From Candidatus Harrisonbacteria bacterium (GTDB taxonomy: Bacteria; Patescibacteriota; Minisyncoccia; UBA6257; 02-FULL-45-10c), in NCBI GenBank assembly GCA_016214655.1, contig JACROC010000005.1, forward strand, positions 3,078 through 67,077: a stretch of DNA of 64,000 nt. The letters run 5' to 3'. Positions 29,393 to 31,621 of this stretch are shown piece after piece (positions within the stretch are counted from its first letter, which is position 1; the number at the start of each line of letters is the position of its first letter). The position numbers were made by a program, and so were the translations under genes. Under the pieces are notes generated by a model that did not search any database, was not told the DNA's origin, and saw only the letters and a program-made list of their open reading frames with translations.

Positions 29393-31621
29393 ATGCCCAG
29401 CATTGAATTAACATCATATTTGTGGCGTAAATGGTTTACTGAAAATCGCTTACCTAAAAGCGGGATAGTTATAGAAGTGGCTCCGGGATATGAACCAAAA
29501 ATCGGCAATGCTTTGGCTCTCTATGAGTTTCAGGGAACGGTTTTTATTATAGAACCGGATCAAGAAGCCGCTCGTCATATTCAAGAAGTTTATAAAAAAA
29601 TCTTACCTGGCGCGGTTATTAAAGTAATTACCAAACCTTTGCAAGATGTGGAGGTTGGAGCTGATATTCCTTGCAGAGCAGATGCCTTGGTAGCCAGCCA
29701 TCCTTTTGATGACATGGTTATTGCTTATATTATGCAAACCAATCTCAAAAATAATCTCTTTTCTCAAGAAAAAAATGACGGGGCAAGGATGTCCGCTCCC
29801 ATAAAAGAATTTTACGATGCTATCGGGGATAAAGATTATGCGCACGGGATAGCGGCTGCGGTAGTGGCCTGGAAAGAGTTTATTCAGAAACTGAGGCCAG
29901 CCTGCTTTATCGCCAGTCAGTACCCGAGTCATATGCTTGCCATAAAAGGGCTGACTAAGCGCCAGAACAGCGGATACGCCGTTCTTGATCAACTGAAGAG
30001 TTATTATAGAGATTCTTTGAGGATACAATGCCATGAAAAATTATTCGGCCATAAAGGAAACTCTAGGTGGTGGATCATTGTTCGGAATCCTGAAGCAAGT
30101 TTAGCGTATGATTTTCAGCAACAACCTCTTGCTATAAAGCGATTAGGCGGGCAAGTTTTTGTCCCTCAGCGAGCCAGGCGGCTTCGCCCAGAGGAATATG
30201 ACGTAATATATATTGATAAGAAATATTTTGATAATTTAGGATACGAAAATATCTTAAAGCAAGTCCAGGATTTTGCGATTATTCTTGATAATGAACACCC
30301 ATTCACTTCAGAACGTGTCATAACTTATGCAGATTACCAGAAAGATATAACAGATATCGGTTTGAGTGGAAATCTTGGCTCTGGGAGAGCGGTTTATTAT
30401 GGAAATAATTTTAATATTCTGGGAGTCGGCAAAACAACGCTTTGCCAGAGCAAGATTCCAAGTCATAGTACTGGCAGAACAGATCTTATGGGAGCAATGA
30501 GGCGAGTGATTCTATCCAGGTGGATTAATTATTTTACGCCTAGAGCGATGGCGCACCCTGTGCTTATTGCATTAAAAGAAACACGGCAATATAAATGGAA
30601 TCCTAATCTCCTTCCGCTGGCTCTGCTGGTGCGAGTGGACAATGGCAGCTTGGATAGGCCGAGCCACATTGAATATTCTCCGGAGATTCCGGTTGATTTT
30701 CAAAAAACTTTGACTGAGTATGCGAGATTGGACGCAGAATATTTTGCCTATCGAATATTACTTGGCGCTTGGTCAAACAGCAATTATTCTCTTAACGGCC
30801 AGTTGATTGATCTGGAAACTGCTTCTTTTGTGAAATATCGCAGTCCCTGCTATACTGCTTCCGCAAAGCATCATGAAACCCTTTTTGGATATGAAGGCGG
30901 AGGATTTTTGAAGATTCTTTATCAGCTGGCTGATGTAAAAAATATAGAGACCGGAGAAATTGAAAAACAATTTTATCAGGAACGGCACCGGCATTTAGCT
31001 TACTGTTTTTTACTGCTTCTTGGCCTTACTTCAGACCAAGCCTTGGCTTTTTTCTCAAAGTATCAAGACCGAGTTGTGGTCTTATCAGATCAATTTGAAA
31101 AATTAGCCAAGGAGATTGGCCATCAAAAAATCAGCTTAAATTTATATAATGGCGTTTCCGGCGATCAAGACCCGAGCTTGTTAGATATGTCCAACTTATT
31201 CAGAAATTTGGCAAAGATTTATGGATCTTCCAGCGCAGAAGCAAGTGCCATTGGTTATTTAGTAAGAAAACCTGCCTGGTTGCGATCAGATGATTTTTTA
31301 GGCGAGACAAGAAATTTCATTCAATCTTTACTTCACCTTCTTGTTATACTTGATTCGGAAAATTATTTAGATGATAAGCTGCGTTGGAATAAGCGTCTTC
31401 AAGCCATTAACCAAGATTTGCCGACTATGTTTGAACTTAATGCTGTGTTGAGACGTTTGGTTGAAGAATATCGTTTGGGAAAGATTAGTGGAGGAACACT
31501 TGGGGCGGAAATTAAACGACTTTGTGAACTACCCCTAAATGTTGTCAAAAACTTAGACACGATGCATTGTTCTAGGAAATTTTTGATTCATAATAGTAGC
31601 AGAAGCTTGAAAAGGAGGTGA
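29393..31621 (+). CDS. large protein (742 aa): N-terminal class-I methyltransferase-like region plus a SelO/YdiU-like kinase-fold (nucleotidyltransferase) region
   Basis: GxG-like VIEVAPGYEPKIG and a motif-IV-like VASHPFDD. The later segments GSGRAVYYGNNFNILGVGKTTL, STGRTDLMGAMRRVILSRWINYF and GAWSNSNYSLNGQLIDLETASF resemble the SelO GDGRA / KGAG-TP / DGRAVLRS / HGVMNTDN blocks. Similarity judged by eye only. Confidence 0.45.
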   Translation: MPSIELTSYLWRKWFTENRLPKSGIVIEVAPGYEPKIGNALALYEFQGTVFIIEPDQEAARHIQEVYKKILPGAVIKVITKPLQDVEVGADIPCRADALVASHPFDDMVIAYIMQTNLKNNLFSQEKNDGARMSAPIKEFYDAIGDKDYAHGIAAAVVAWKEFIQKLRPACFIASQYPSHMLAIKGLTKRQNSGYAVLDQLKSYYRDSLRIQCHEKLFGHKGNSRWWIIVRNPEASLAYDFQQQPLAIKRLGGQVFVPQRARRLRPEEYDVIYIDKKYFDNLGYENILKQVQDFAIILDNEHPFTSERVITYADYQKDITDIGLSGNLGSGRAVYYGNNFNILGVGKTTLCQSKIPSHSTGRTDLMGAMRRVILSRWINYFTPRAMAHPVLIALKETRQYKWNPNLLPLALLVRVDNGSLDRPSHIEYSPEIPVDFQKTLTEYARLDAEYFAYRILLGAWSNSNYSLNGQLIDLETASFVKYRSPCYTASAKHHETLFGYEGGGFLKILYQLADVKNIETGEIEKQFYQERHRHLAYCFLLLLGLTSDQALAFFSKYQDRVVVLSDQFEKLAKEIGHQKISLNLYNGVSGDQDPSLLDMSNLFRNLAKIYGSSSAEASAIGYLVRKPAWLRSDDFLGETRNFIQSLLHLLVILDSENYLDDKLRWNKRLQAINQDLPTMFELNAVLRRLVEEYRLGKISGGTLGAEIKRLCELPLNVVKNLDTMHCSRKFLIHNSSRSLKRR

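What the first reader, a model, noticed from the sequence alone, without database searches (positions are those of the whole stretch)
29393..31621. 742-aa protein combining a methyltransferase-like N-terminus with SelO/YdiU-like kinase-fold blocks
Blocks GSGRAVYYGN, LGVGKTTL, TGRTDLMGAMRRVILSRW and GAWSNSNYSLNGQLIDLE line up with the SelO motifs GDGRA, KGAG-TP, DGRAVLRSxIRE and HGVMNTDNMSLLGLTLD. The N-terminal 250 aa carry a GxG Rossmann-like motif and a motif-IV-like SHPFDD. SelO-family enzymes AMPylate or UMPylate proteins. Fusion to a methyltransferase-like domain is unusual.
Basis: inference. Interest (0 to 1): 0.6.

Follow-up and report, generated by a model that had tools for sequence, protein, structure and literature searches.

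The report
Methyltransferase-like domain fused to SelO-type enzyme
This gene from an uncultured candidate-phyla-radiation bacterium encodes an unannotated two-part enzyme, a methyltransferase-shaped domain joined to a relative of the SelO/MchC nucleotide-transferring "pseudokinases" whose active site has been rearranged, so it is a good candidate for chemistry not yet described for this protein fold.

Summary
The 742-aa ORF at 29393-31621 (+) is real. It is identical to a "hypothetical protein" from a Candidatus Harrisonbacteria MAG.

An AlphaFold model (pLDDT 87) matches P. syringae SelO and E. coli YdiU (Foldseek E 8e-14 to 1e-11). Residues 1-245 match class I SAM-methyltransferases (E 1e-4).

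By profile comparison the closest characterised relative is MchC/MceJ, the microcin-maturation branch of the SelO superfamily (E 4e-13 for the broad family; YdiU gives 1.7e-4).

The metal-binding Asn and Asp and three phosphate or nucleotide contacts (Q316, R332, R414) are invariant. The proposed catalytic base (D246) is Gly or Ser throughout the superfamily. This CPR clade alone (54/54 sequences) has also replaced the β3 Lys, αC Glu and His240.

The gene sits in a conserved operon: divergent TrmB regulator, adenylate-kinase-like P-loop protein, sugar-type GFO/IDH/MocA dehydrogenase. Sister forms carry cNMP-binding domains instead. Distant relatives link the N-domain to NAD(P) biosynthesis clusters and the SelO-like domain to radical SAM genes.

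No Pfam or NCBIfam model covers the family.

Verdict: a new, rewired variant of a known kind. The fold is well supported, the substrate is unknown, and interest is moderate to high.

The parts
29393..31621 (+). Complete ORF, 742 aa: MTase-like N-domain plus SelO-superfamily (MchC-like) kinase-fold domain
29393..30127 (+). N-terminal domain (residues 1-245), class I methyltransferase-like Rossmann fold. It is encoded as a separate, 4-bp-overlapping gene in some relatives and as a standalone gene elsewhere.
   Evidence: Foldseek MnmM/NSun6/Bud23 E 1e-4 to 2e-3; split genes in L008, L021, L045, L048, L049, L035; no Pfam or PDB sequence match
29474..29506 (+). Motif-I-equivalent loop EVAPGYEPKIG after beta1 (E28, P31, G32, K36 invariant in the N-domain family)
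29543..29560 (+). Strand beta2 ending in the conserved acidic residue (FIIEPD, E54), the position that binds ribose hydroxyls in SAM- and NAD-binding Rossmann folds
   Evidence: the role is inferred from general knowledge of the fold
29684..29716 (+). Strand beta4 plus motif-IV-like ALVASHPFDDM (H103, D106, D107, M108 invariant), resembling [SND]PP[FYW]
30128..31537 (+). SelO-superfamily kinase-fold domain with C-terminal helical region (residues 246-715)
   Evidence: Foldseek 6eac E 7.9e-14; hhalign to MchC and YdiU
30326..30346 (+). YADYQKD: Q316 equals YdiU Q75. It is flanked by the family-specific invariant acids D314 and D318, which are candidate relocated catalytic residues.
30368..30391 (+). 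Gly-rich loop GNLGSGRA (equivalent to SelO GQLGDGRG); R332 equals YdiU R87, invariant
30410..30442 (+). Beta3 and following loop FNILGVGKTTL: L343 sits where SelO has the VAIK-type Lys (K107); K347 is conserved four residues later
30488..30523 (+). Helix alphaC MGAMRRVILSRW: R371 occupies the position of the SelO alphaC Glu (E130); R370/R371 invariant in the clade
30623..30673 (+). LLVRVDNGSLDRPSHIE: R414 equals YdiU R170 (invariant), E427 replaces R177; R422 and H425 are near-invariant across the superfamily
30761..30817 (+). Catalytic and metal-binding segment LGAWSNSNYSLNGQLIDLE: L457 for H240, S461 for N244, S463 for the catalytic base D246, N464 equals N247, D473 equals D256 (DFG-type Asp), E475 a family-specific acid
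31538..31618 (+). C-terminal tail (residues 716-742), predicted disordered
   Evidence: pLDDT below 50 for 717-742
27960..29387 (+). Operon partner: 475-aa GFO/IDH/MocA-fold NAD(P) dehydrogenase. Its stop codon lies 5 nt before the target's ATG.
   Evidence: Pfam PF01408; model pLDDT 88.7; Foldseek GFOR, scyllo-inositol DH, glycoside 3-DH, WlbA at E 1e-16 to 1e-14; adjacency conserved
27324..27914 (+). Operon partner: 196-aa P-loop kinase, archaeal adenylate-kinase-like
   Evidence: AAA_17 3.9e-7; NCBIfam adenylate kinase PRK04040 3.1e-7, below cut-off; PDB 1ki9 E 0.005; conserved adjacency
26173..26922 (-). Divergently transcribed TrmB-family regulator, conserved next to the operon and also next to distant fused homologs
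   Evidence: PF01978 5e-11
31741..32781 (+). Downstream MBL-fold hydrolase (HVHWDH), probably co-transcribed in this genome but not generally conserved with the family
   Evidence: Lactamase_B_2 4e-15, weak RNase Z and cyclic-nucleotide phosphodiesterase similarity; no terminator before it; recurs only in L008 and L045
32790..32815 (+). Strong intrinsic-terminator-like hairpin (11 bp stem, T tail) closing the transcription unit

Best explanation
The ORF encodes a two-module enzyme. Residues 246-715 form a SelO-superfamily kinase-fold domain of the MchC/MceJ-like branch. It most likely still binds a nucleotide in the flipped SelO orientation with Mg2+/Mn2+ and transfers the nucleoside-monophosphate moiety, probably AMP. 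It keeps the two metal ligands (N464, D473) and the contacts equivalent to Q75, R87 and R170. Like MchC and every member of its own superfamily, it lacks the general base D246. I therefore infer that the acceptor is an oxyanion, a carboxylate or phosphate of a metabolite or peptide, and not a Tyr/Ser/Thr/His side chain. This is activation-by-adenylylation chemistry of the kind attributed to MceIJ. In the CPR clade the canonical beta3-Lys/alphaC-Glu pair has been exchanged for Leu and Arg (with R370, K347, E427, R422). This is a concerted, strictly conserved relocation of charges, not decay. Residues 1-245 form a class I methyltransferase-like Rossmann module that is an obligate partner: fused, or translationally coupled as a separate gene. 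It probably binds an adenosine-containing ligand (SAM or a pyridine nucleotide) and acts on or presents the same substrate. In this genome the enzyme works in a TrmB-controlled operon with an adenylate-kinase-like protein, which could recycle AMP, and a sugar/cyclitol-type NAD(P) dehydrogenase. That points to a carbohydrate-like small-molecule pathway. Shown: fold, family placement, residue pattern, operon and fusion patterns. Inferred: catalytic competence, nucleotide, acceptor class, role of the N-domain.
For: Fold: SelO and YdiU are the top nine PDB matches to a confident model. Family: hhalign of the broad family against MchC gives E 4e-13 (prob 97.9%, 314 columns); the clade against MchC gives E 8.8e-7. 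Against YdiU the values are 1.7e-4 and 0.22 in the same register. Pfam SelO is passed by P0034 and P0209. Residues, from 148 aligned sequences: the equivalents of Q75, R87, G120, R170, N247 and D256 are invariant. The D246 position is Gly or Ser in essentially all sequences (a few Asn or Ala), and MchC has Ser there too. In the clade, K107 becomes L/M/I (N in one), E130 becomes R, R177 becomes E and H240 becomes L/F/Q/M in 54/54 sequences. The sister groups keep K (25/25, 64/66), E (25/25, 51/68) and H (24/26, 66/68). Residue roles come from the YdiU structural paper. Invariance of the substituted residues at 45-60% overall identity argues for selection. Module coupling: split genes with ATGA overlap. 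Operon: TrmB(-)|AAA17-GFO-target in the window plus at least 14 other contigs with unrelated outer flanks. GFO is a sugar/inositol-type dehydrogenase fold. MchC precedent for non-protein-kinase chemistry in this superfamily: PMC3281104, PMC7472721 and PMC7680869.
Against: No activity, ligand or substrate is shown for any member. The query itself has no significant sequence match to SelO in Pfam or PDB. Loss of the beta3 Lys, alphaC Glu and the catalytic-loop His is the classic signature of an inactive pseudokinase. The MchC partner, a HlyC-type acyltransferase, and any peptide precursor are absent. The GFO enzyme occurs without this protein in Chryseobacterium, Anaerolineae and others, and cNMP-fused forms lack the operon, so the sugar link may be clade-specific or merely syntenic. 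The N-domain has no sequence-level match to any methyltransferase and no GxGxG. ATP/Mg2+ dependence of MceIJ is from my memory of Nolan et al. 2007/2008; the paper could not be opened.
Confidence: 0.45

Rival explanations
1. It is a conventional SelO/YdiU-type protein AMPylase or UMPylase that modifies proteins, for example its GFO dehydrogenase neighbour. The N-domain serves as a regulatory or substrate-docking module, and the downstream MBL hydrolase removes the modification, by analogy with RNase Z.
For: SelO and YdiU are the best structural matches, with conserved metal and phosphate ligands. SelO substrates are metabolic enzymes and RNase Z, an MBL-fold enzyme, is the SelO deAMPylase (PMC12663964). 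The MBL gene is apparently co-transcribed here, with best NCBIfam similarity to RNase Z.
Confidence: 0.2
2. It is an NAD-linked enzyme. The Rossmann N-domain binds a pyridine nucleotide or precursor. The SelO-like domain makes, cleaves or uses the AMP-NMN pyrophosphate bond, acting as an NMN-adenylyltransferase-like enzyme, an NADase-like enzyme, or an adenylyl transferase that uses NAD+ as the AMP donor.
For: Standalone N-domain genes lie in NAD(P) biosynthesis clusters in 9 of 23 distant loci. These clusters carry NadE, NadD-like, PncA-like, NadA, a nucleoside hydrolase, NUDIX, an NAD kinase-like gene (7r4j, E 5.8e-7) and an archaeal NMNAT-like gene (1f9a, E 1.7e-9). The full-length homolog P0209 is fused to a glutamine-dependent NAD synthetase. 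YdiU-NAD crystal structures are among the fold hits (9jym, 9jyn, 9l29) and SelO is reported as an NADase (abstract of PMC13391479). A phosphate nucleophile needs no general base, which fits the missing D246.
Against: The NAD clusters concern relatives only 24-38% identical in the N-domain and lacking a SelO-like domain. No NAD gene lies in the CPR operon. The nearby AAA_28 protein shows no NadR match. Methyltransferase genes next to NAD kinase can be non-functional synteny, as with tlyA-nadK (my own knowledge). Only one NadE fusion was found.
Confidence: 0.17
3. It is a peptide (RiPP-type) maturation enzyme like MceJ. Its peptide substrate is encoded elsewhere, and it attaches a sugar-derived moiety made by the operon partners.
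For: It is closest to MchC/MceJ, which links a glucosylated siderophore to a peptide C-terminal carboxylate. Distant SelO-like-only genes lie beside three radical SAM genes, two of them B12-binding, in 6 of 7 loci. Radical SAM fusions exist in P0191 and P0202. The partner is a sugar-type dehydrogenase.
Against: No conserved small ORF, exporter, immunity gene or HlyC-like partner is found around any CPR operon. The radical SAM genes are on the opposite strand, separated by a secreted-protein gene. No defence or bacteriocin model matches.
Confidence: 0.1
4. It is a catalytically dead pseudoenzyme that acts as a nucleotide-sensing scaffold or regulator. It is regulated by cNMP in the long forms and by TrmB at transcription in the operon forms.
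For: The VAIK-type Lys, alphaC Glu, catalytic-loop His and D246 are all missing in this clade. Sister forms carry two cNMP-binding domains, which is typical of signalling proteins.
Against: The metal ligands N464 and D473, and Q316, R332 and R414, are invariant. The replacing residues are themselves invariant in 54/54 sequences. That is what an active but rewired site predicts. WNK kinases relocated their Lys in a similar way (my own knowledge).
Confidence: 0.08

Closest known systems
MchC / MceJ (microcin H47 / E492 maturation proteins; distant branch of the SELO family, Dudkiewicz et al. 2012, PMC3281104)
   Same: It is the best profile match: A2 versus E. coli CFT073 MchC gives E 4e-13, and A1 gives 8.8e-7. 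Shared motifs are G-x-x-R in the Gly loop, KGIGxxxL...HSNG, LLVR...RPxH and S-x-S-N...D-G-x-x-x-D-F. Both lack the D246 general base (Ser/Gly). Both are unannotated by Pfam and NCBIfam.
   Different: MchC has no N-terminal methyltransferase-like domain. It works with a HlyC-type acyltransferase (MchD/MceI) inside a microcin/siderophore island. None of these partners is present here. MchC keeps the beta3 Lys and alphaC Glu, which this clade has replaced. MchC lacks the Q75-equivalent Gln and the D314/D318 acids. The taxonomy differs: gammaproteobacteria versus CPR.
SelO / YdiU (Pfam PF02696, protein adenylyl-/uridylyl-transferase; PDB 6eac, 6k20, 6lna, 9jym)
   Same: The whole fold matches, including the C-terminal helical region. 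The register of the Gly loop, beta3, alphaC and the catalytic/DFG-like segment is the same. Equivalents of Q75, R87, G120, R170, N247 and D256 are conserved.
   Different: The equivalents of D246, K107, E130, R177, H240, N244 and D119 are replaced. The query does not reach the Pfam threshold. It has an extra N-terminal domain and a different genomic context. It has no C-terminal Cys/Sec or self-AMPylation tail motif; the tail here is a basic disordered stretch.
Class I (seven-beta-strand) SAM-dependent methyltransferases, e.g. MnmM (8h1b), NSun6, Bud23
   Same: Residues 1-245 share the Rossmann-like fold (Foldseek E 1.2e-4, TM 0.66 to MnmM). There is an acidic residue at the end of beta2 and a conserved [S/N]HP[F/L]DD motif after beta4, at the motif IV position.
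   Different: No sequence-level similarity to any methyltransferase in Pfam or PDB. There is no GxGxG. A helical insertion spans residues 122-167. Standalone relatives sit in NAD(P) biosynthesis operons, so the ligand may not be SAM.
Nidovirus NiRAN domain (SelO-like kinase fold, NMPylation/RNAylation, works upstream of cap methyltransferases)
   Same: It is another SelO-like nucleotidyltransferase that acts on non-canonical acceptors and is functionally coupled to methyltransferases (abstracts of PMC8017715 and PMC8863163).
   Different: No direct similarity was tested or found here. NiRAN was not among the Foldseek PDB hits with E <= 1e-3 listed. This is an analogy only.

Membership tests
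SelO/YdiU (PF02696) | Protein-kinase-like fold with the SelO-specific N- and C-terminal elaborations | tested here: met
   Foldseek: 6eac E 7.9e-14, TM 0.65 (target), 532 columns; YdiU entries E about 1e-11; model pLDDT 87.2
SelO/YdiU (PF02696) | Reaches the Pfam gathering score (22.8 bits) | tested here: not met
   The query has no SelO hit at E <= 1. Only 7 of 33 family members touch the model, with a best score of 26.4 bits. P0209 scores 22.9 bits.
SelO/YdiU (PF02696) | Metal-binding Asn and DFG-type Asp (YdiU N247, D256) | tested here: met
   N464 and D473 are invariant in 148/148 sequences
SelO/YdiU (PF02696) | General base Asp (YdiU D246; D246A abolishes activity) | tested here: not met
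   S463 here. The position is Gly or Ser in nearly all 148 superfamily members, with a few Asn or Ala and never Asp. Role.
SelO/YdiU (PF02696) | VAIK-type Lys (K107) paired with alphaC Glu (E130) | tested here: not met
   L343 and R371 here, in 54/54 sequences of the clade. K and E are retained in sister groups.
SelO/YdiU (PF02696) | Phosphate-binding Arg residues (R87, R170, R177) and Gln75 | tested here: inconclusive
   R332, R414 and Q316 are invariant. R177 is replaced by E427, with the near-invariant R422 nearby.
SelO/YdiU (PF02696) | AMPylation or UMPylation of protein side chains | not testable with these tools
   Requires biochemistry
MchC/MceJ branch of the SELO family | Significant profile similarity to MchC over the kinase-like core | tested here: met
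   hhalign: A2 E 4e-13 with prob 97.9% over 314 columns; A1 E 8.8e-7 with prob 91.5%
MchC/MceJ branch of the SELO family | Divergent HGV/HRD-type motif lacking the D246 Asp | tested here: met
   MchC has TSPSN; the family has WS[TNA][GS]N. Variation of this motif in MchC is noted in PMC3281104.
MchC/MceJ branch of the SELO family | Adjacent HlyC-type acyltransferase partner (MchD/MceI) | tested here: not met
   The MchD query found nothing in 50 loci (L035-L084; 47 of them from the metagenome scan). No conserved extra gene occurs in the CPR operons. The window's neighbours have other folds.
MchC/MceJ branch of the SELO family | Microcin precursor, siderophore-tailoring and export genes in the cluster | tested here: not met
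   No conserved small ORF. The neighbours are TrmB, AAA_17, GFO and MBL.
Class I SAM-dependent methyltransferase | Seven-beta-strand Rossmann-like fold | tested here: met
   Foldseek MnmM E 1.2e-4, TM 0.66, plus many other methyltransferases
Class I SAM-dependent methyltransferase | Gly-rich motif I (GxGxG) after beta1 | tested here: not met
   The loop is EVAPGYEPKIG, and residues 1-250 contain no GxG
Class I SAM-dependent methyltransferase | Acidic residue at the end of beta2 | tested here: met
   E54 is conserved as E or D
Class I SAM-dependent methyltransferase | Sequence-profile match to a known methyltransferase family | tested here: not met
   No Pfam hit for the query or ten standalone homologs. 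The N-domain profile finds nothing in the PDB at E <= 10.
Class I SAM-dependent methyltransferase | Binds SAM and transfers a methyl group | not testable with these tools
   Requires binding or activity assays, or ligand-aware modelling

The most novel reading that the evidence does not exclude
The MTase-like plus SelO-like pair is a previously unrecognised enzyme system of nucleotide or NAD(P)-linked metabolism, widespread in uncultured bacteria. In this reading the kinase fold has lost the general base and, in the CPR clade, has relocated its catalytic Lys/Glu. It performs adenylyl transfer to or from a phosphate or carboxylate acceptor, for example forming or cleaving an AMP-NMN type bond, or using NAD+ as the AMP donor. 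The Rossmann module holds the pyridine-nucleotide or SAM partner. This would be a new chemistry and a new pathway role for the protein-kinase fold.
Probability: 0.15. Interest if true: 0.8.

Novelty: new variant of a known kind. Interest (0 to 1): 0.6.

Why it matters
SelO-type "pseudokinases" have repeatedly revealed unexpected chemistry, including AMPylation, UMPylation, NAD hydrolysis, RNAylation in NiRAN and siderophore-peptide ligation in MceJ.

This family is large, with 720 representative clusters at 50% identity. No curated model covers it. It always pairs the kinase fold with an uncharacterised methyltransferase-like module.

The CPR clade shows a clean, strictly conserved relocation of the canonical catalytic Lys/Glu pair. 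This offers a natural experiment in how kinase-fold active sites are rebuilt.

The conserved operon, the cNMP-binding fusions and the NAD and radical SAM associations of relatives give concrete, testable leads to a substrate. The organisms concerned, Patescibacteria, have metabolism that is poorly understood.

The work also shows that E. coli MchC is still annotated as hypothetical and that a model for the MchC-like branch is missing from the family databases.

Tried and rejected
- **PDB sequence searches, target.** Searches with the query, the family profile A1 and the N-domain profile A4 found nothing useful.
- **SelO profile attempt.** A homolog search with E. coli SelO returned only relatives at 79% identity or more, which are useless for a diverse SelO profile. 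I fell back on single-sequence templates.
- **MBL neighbour as an RNase Z-like eraser.** The gene is co-transcribed here. It recurs in only two related loci and scores far below RNase Z cut-offs. I kept the idea only inside a rival explanation.
- **Upstream 178-aa genes.** Those next to two distant homologs are unrelated to each other and to AAA_17.
- **Defence system.** No PADLOC match.
- **Precursor peptide or HlyC partner.** All recurrent small ORFs are shadows inside the four conserved genes.
- **GFO as a universal partner.** Rejected, because GFO homologs in Chryseobacterium, Anaerolineae and another genome lack any SelO-like or N-domain neighbour.
- **Nearby AAA_28 protein as a NadR-type kinase.** Only its C-terminal CYTH-like half matches PDB entries.
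- **ABC-F ATPase.** It recurs near three loci and was judged incidental.
- **Nolan et al. 2007.** The paper could not be opened, so the ATP/Mg2+ dependence of MceIJ remains an unverified recollection.
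Full report
**1. Observation**

The window contains an ATG-initiated ORF at 29393-31621 on the + strand, encoding 742 aa. Its product is identical to [quoted passage not shown], so the window comes from a candidate-phyla-radiation (Patescibacteria) genome.

SHPFDD is at residues 102-107.

The one inaccurate detail is the "GxG" motif. Residues 1-250 contain no G-x-G. The loop after the first strand reads EVAPGYEPKIG.

**2. Direct annotation attempts fail**

The protein itself has no significant match in any sequence library:
- Pfam and NCBIfam give nothing significant.
- The PDB gives nothing by sequence, either for the protein alone or for a 33-sequence family profile.
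- PADLOC defence models give nothing.

This explains the "hypothetical" label.

**3. Fold**

An AlphaFold2 model built on the family alignment is confident: mean pLDDT 87.2 and pTM 0.68, with only residues 281-283 and 717-742 disordered.

Foldseek against the PDB returns P. syringae SelO (6eac, E 7.9e-14, TM 0.65 on target length, 532 columns). Every E. coli YdiU entry follows at E about 1e-11, including the NAD complexes 9jym, 9jyn and 9l29.

After a gap, class I SAM-methyltransferases match the N-terminal domain. These include MnmM (E 1.2e-4, TM 0.66), NSun6, Bud23, METTL-type and lysine methyltransferases.

**4. Sequence-level bridge to SelO, and a closer relative**

- Two homologs pass the Pfam SelO gathering score of 22.8 bits: P0034 at 26.4 bits and P0209 at 22.9 bits. 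In total, 7 of 33 aligned members touch the model.
- hhalign against a single E. coli SelO sequence (taken from MG1655) gives E 0.22 for the clade alignment A1. It gives E 1.7e-4 for the broader family alignment A2.
- The 2012 paper that defined the SELO kinase-like family describes MchC/MceJ, the microcin H47/E492 maturation protein, as a distant SELO branch with a variable catalytic-loop motif (PMC3281104).
- I retrieved MchC from E. coli CFT073. It is L034:7322-8869, lies between mchB and the HlyC-like mchD, and is annotated "hypothetical protein".
- The family is much closer to MchC than to YdiU. A2 gives E 4e-13 (prob 97.9%, 314 columns) and A1 gives E 8.8e-7.
- MchC itself has no Pfam or NCBIfam model.

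The precise placement is therefore: SelO superfamily, MchC-like branch, a family of its own.

**5. Size and architectures of the family**

An exhaustive HMMER search of 1.84 billion representatives with A1 finds 720 clusters at E <= 1e-3 and 140 at E <= 1e-30. Four kinds of architecture appear:
- The fused MTase-like plus SelO-like form (730-980 aa).
- A SelO-like-only form (about 620-650 aa).
- Standalone N-domain proteins (about 240-267 aa), which have no Pfam match.
- Fusions to other modules:
  - two C-terminal cNMP-binding domains (many close relatives);
  - glutamine-dependent NAD synthetase (P0209);
  - radical SAM domains (P0191, P0202);
  - APH-type kinase domains (P0245, P0269).

In several loci the two modules are separate adjacent genes. 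In L008 their stop and start codons overlap (ATGA). This is a Rosetta-stone argument that the two modules work together.

**6. Active site**

I aligned 148 SelO-like domains to a family HMM and grouped them by architecture. Residue roles come from the YdiU structural study (bioRxiv 10.1101/692707), and kinase-motif equivalences from PMC12599244.

Residues invariant across the whole superfamily and shared with SelO:

| Residue here | YdiU equivalent | Role in YdiU |
|---|---|---|
| Q316 | Q75 | AMP phosphate contact |
| R332 | R87 | Gly-loop Arg |
| G361 | G120 | base-fixing loop |
| R414 | R170 | phosphate binding |
| N464 | N247 | metal ligand |
| D473 | D256 | DFG-type metal ligand |

The proposed general base D246, whose mutation abolishes YdiU activity, is Gly or Ser in essentially every member, never Asp, and is S463 in the query. 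It is also Ser in MchC.

Acids specific to this superfamily are strictly conserved at D314, D318 and E/D475, together with R422, R483 and E501. One of these may supply what D246 does in SelO. That is an inference.

**7. A clade-specific rewiring**

The window's clade differs from its sister groups at four canonical positions:

| YdiU residue | This clade (54/54 sequences) | Broader fused group | SelO-like-only group |
|---|---|---|---|
| K107 (beta3 Lys) | L/M/I (N in one) | K in 25/25 | K in 64/66 |
| E130 (alphaC Glu) | R371 | E in 25/25 | E in 51/68 |
| R177 | E427 | variable (R, A, E, N) | variable (N, R, K, L) |
| H240 | L/F/Q/M | H in 24/26 | H in 66/68 |

Position 370 is also Arg in this clade, where the sister groups mostly have Trp.

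Two conclusions follow:
- The distant relatives carry the canonical residues in exactly the columns predicted by the SelO alignment. This validates the register independently.
- The replacements in the CPR clade are themselves invariant at only 45-60% overall identity. That is the signature of a reorganised, selected site and not of decay. I read it as relocation of positive charge from beta3 to alphaC, comparable in spirit to the relocated Lys of WNK kinases (my own knowledge).

**8. The N-terminal domain**

- Its secondary structure follows the class I methyltransferase order.
- Its family invariants are W11, E28, P31, G32, K36, G48, Y67, H103, D106, D107, M108, P169 and Y177.
- An acid closes strand beta2 (E54).
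- [S/N]HP[F/L]DD follows strand beta4, at the motif IV position. It resembles the [SND]PP[FYW] motif of amino-group methyltransferases (the resemblance is from my own knowledge).
- No methyltransferase is detectable by sequence and motif I is not Gly-rich.

[quoted passage not shown] is what the evidence supports. SAM use is not shown.

**9. Genomic context of the close clade**

The arrangement is TrmB (divergent) | AAA_17 P-loop kinase > GFO/IDH/MocA > target.

- It occurs in the window and in L003/L004/L017, L007, L008, L010, L011, L012, L018, L038, L042, L043, L045, L048, L049, L052/L053, L054, L056 and L040. The genes outside this block are unrelated from locus to locus.
- In the window the GFO stop codon is 5 nt from the target's ATG. 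No terminator is predicted until a strong hairpin at 32790-32815, after the downstream MBL gene.
- The kinase is most like archaeal adenylate kinases, though weakly.
- The GFO partner models with pLDDT 88.7 and pTM 0.91. Its structural neighbours are exclusively sugar, inositol or glycoside dehydrogenases: GFOR, scyllo-inositol DH, glycoside 3-DH and WlbA, at E 1e-16 to 1e-14.
- The GFO partner is more conserved than the target (75-85% identity). It also exists without the target in Chryseobacterium, Anaerolineae and others, so the coupling is clade-specific.
- The cNMP-fused forms lack the kinase and GFO genes. This suggests two alternative modes of control: transcriptional through TrmB, or allosteric through cyclic nucleotides.
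- More distant fused homologs still have a divergent TrmB-like gene (L060, L072).

**10. Context of distant relatives**

*NAD(P) biosynthesis.* Standalone N-domain genes lie in NAD(P) biosynthesis clusters in 9 of 23 loci. In L036/L037 the gene order is PncA-like, NadE, archaeal NMNAT-like (1f9a, E 1.7e-9), nucleoside hydrolase, NUDIX, NadA, NAD-kinase-like (7r4j, E 5.8e-7), NadD-like, then the N-domain gene. Subsets of this cluster appear in L063, L064, L067, L068, L070, L074, L080 and L082. Together with the NadE fusion of P0209, the YdiU-NAD structures and the reported NADase activity of SelO, this gives an NAD-linked reading that I cannot exclude.

*Radical SAM.* SelO-like-only genes in Riflebacteria-type genomes sit beside a conserved block of three radical SAM genes, two of them B12-binding, in 6 of 7 loci. 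This matches the radical SAM fusions and hints at peptide or natural-product tailoring, as for MchC.

Neither association is seen in the CPR operon itself.

**11. Mechanism proposed**

*Shown.* The protein is a SelO-superfamily fold. It has intact metal ligands and three intact nucleotide or phosphate contacts. It lacks the SelO general base. Its Lys/Glu pair has been replaced in a concerted way. It is obligately paired with a Rossmann, methyltransferase-like module. Its operon contains an adenylate-kinase-like protein and a sugar-type dehydrogenase under a TrmB regulator.

*Inferred.* The domain binds a nucleotide in the flipped SelO manner and transfers the NMP moiety, probably AMP. The acceptor is an oxyanion (carboxylate or phosphate) that needs no general base. 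This would be adenylylation-type activation as proposed for MceIJ, whose product is a glucosylated siderophore esterified to a peptide C-terminal carboxylate. The ATP/Mg2+ requirement of MceIJ is recalled from Nolan et al. 2007/2008 and was not verified. The kinase partner may recycle AMP. The dehydrogenase may make or consume the carbohydrate-like co-substrate. The N-domain binds SAM or a pyridine nucleotide.

*Confidence.* I put about 0.9 on the fold and superfamily assignment, about 0.7 on catalytic competence, and about 0.45 on the overall mechanistic picture.

*Rivals:*
- A YdiU-like protein NMPylase with the MBL gene as eraser (0.2).
- NAD-linked dinucleotide chemistry (0.17).
- An MceJ-like peptide maturase (0.1).
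- An inactive sensor or scaffold (0.08).

**12. Novelty and verdict**

I found no paper describing a SelO-like or MchC-like domain fused to a methyltransferase-like domain, or a SelO relative in Patescibacteria. The 2012 survey found only three singleton fusions for SELO.

The protein fails several defining features of SelO/YdiU: the Pfam threshold, D246, K107 and E130. It also fails features of the MchC system: the HlyC partner and the microcin context. It nevertheless clearly belongs to the same superfamily.

I classify it as a new variant of a known kind. It is a large, uncurated family with a novel obligatory domain partnership and, in the CPR clade, a rewired active site. The interest score is 0.6. 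A specialist in atypical kinases would want to test it, but the fold-level identity is not itself surprising and the substrate remains unknown.

Noticed in passing
L036:5892-6650 and L037:4259-5017 (also L063, L064, L067, L068, L070, L074, L080, L082): Standalone homologs of the N-terminal domain (about 250 aa, no Pfam model) are the last gene of NAD(P) biosynthesis and salvage operons. The operons carry PncA-like, NadE, archaeal NMNAT-like, nucleoside hydrolase, NUDIX, NadA, NAD-kinase-like and NadD-like genes. 9 of 23 distant loci carry such genes within 8 kb.
   Followed up: partly
L022-L028, about 2.9-7.9 kb in each locus, minus strand, upstream of the SelO-like-only gene: A conserved block of three radical SAM genes, two with B12-binding domains, plus a secreted Lcl_C-domain protein lies next to the SelO-like-only relatives in 6 of 7 loci. 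L023 and L024 carry tandem SelO-like paralogs.
   Followed up: partly
P0209, P0191, P0202, P0245, P0269 (proteins): Family members are fused to a glutamine-dependent NAD synthetase (CN_hydrolase + NAD_synthase), to radical SAM domains and to APH-type kinase domains. I did not check whether these are true fusions or assembly or gene-calling artefacts.
   Followed up: partly
L034:7322-8872 (E. coli CFT073, NC_004431.1 1177321-1178871): MchC, the experimentally implicated microcin H47 maturation protein, is annotated 'hypothetical protein' in RefSeq. It matches no Pfam or NCBIfam model, so the MchC-like branch of the SelO superfamily lacks a curated profile.
   Followed up: yes
[not shown]
   Followed up: partly
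window 24991-26154 (+): A 387-aa fusion of an AAA_28 P-loop domain (residues 14-197) with a C-terminal CYTH-like domain (EIERKF signature; PDB 3typ and 2fbl, E about 4e-4). It is not conserved next to the operon in other loci.
   Followed up: partly
window 27960-29387 (+): The 475-aa GFO/IDH/MocA protein is unusually conserved (75-85% identity across CPR, about 50-63% to Anaerolineae and a cultured Chryseobacterium). It carries about 100 residues more than characterised family members. Its substrate is unknown.
   Followed up: partly
L051 and L060 (same contig Ga0182027_10000508, positions 55090-67801 and 28552-45289): One genome carries two paralogs of the fused protein, only about 30% identical in the N-domain to the window protein in one case. 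One has cNMP-binding domains and the other has a divergent TrmB-like neighbour.
   Followed up: no
window 32882-33217 (+): A 111-aa ORF, probably coiled-coil, is preceded by the best promoter-like site of the region (32832-32860, 10/12 matches). It has no Pfam hit and no homolog in any related locus.
   Followed up: partly
window 1-64000: No tRNA or tmRNA gene and no Rfam family at gathering threshold anywhere in the 64 kb.
   Followed up: yes
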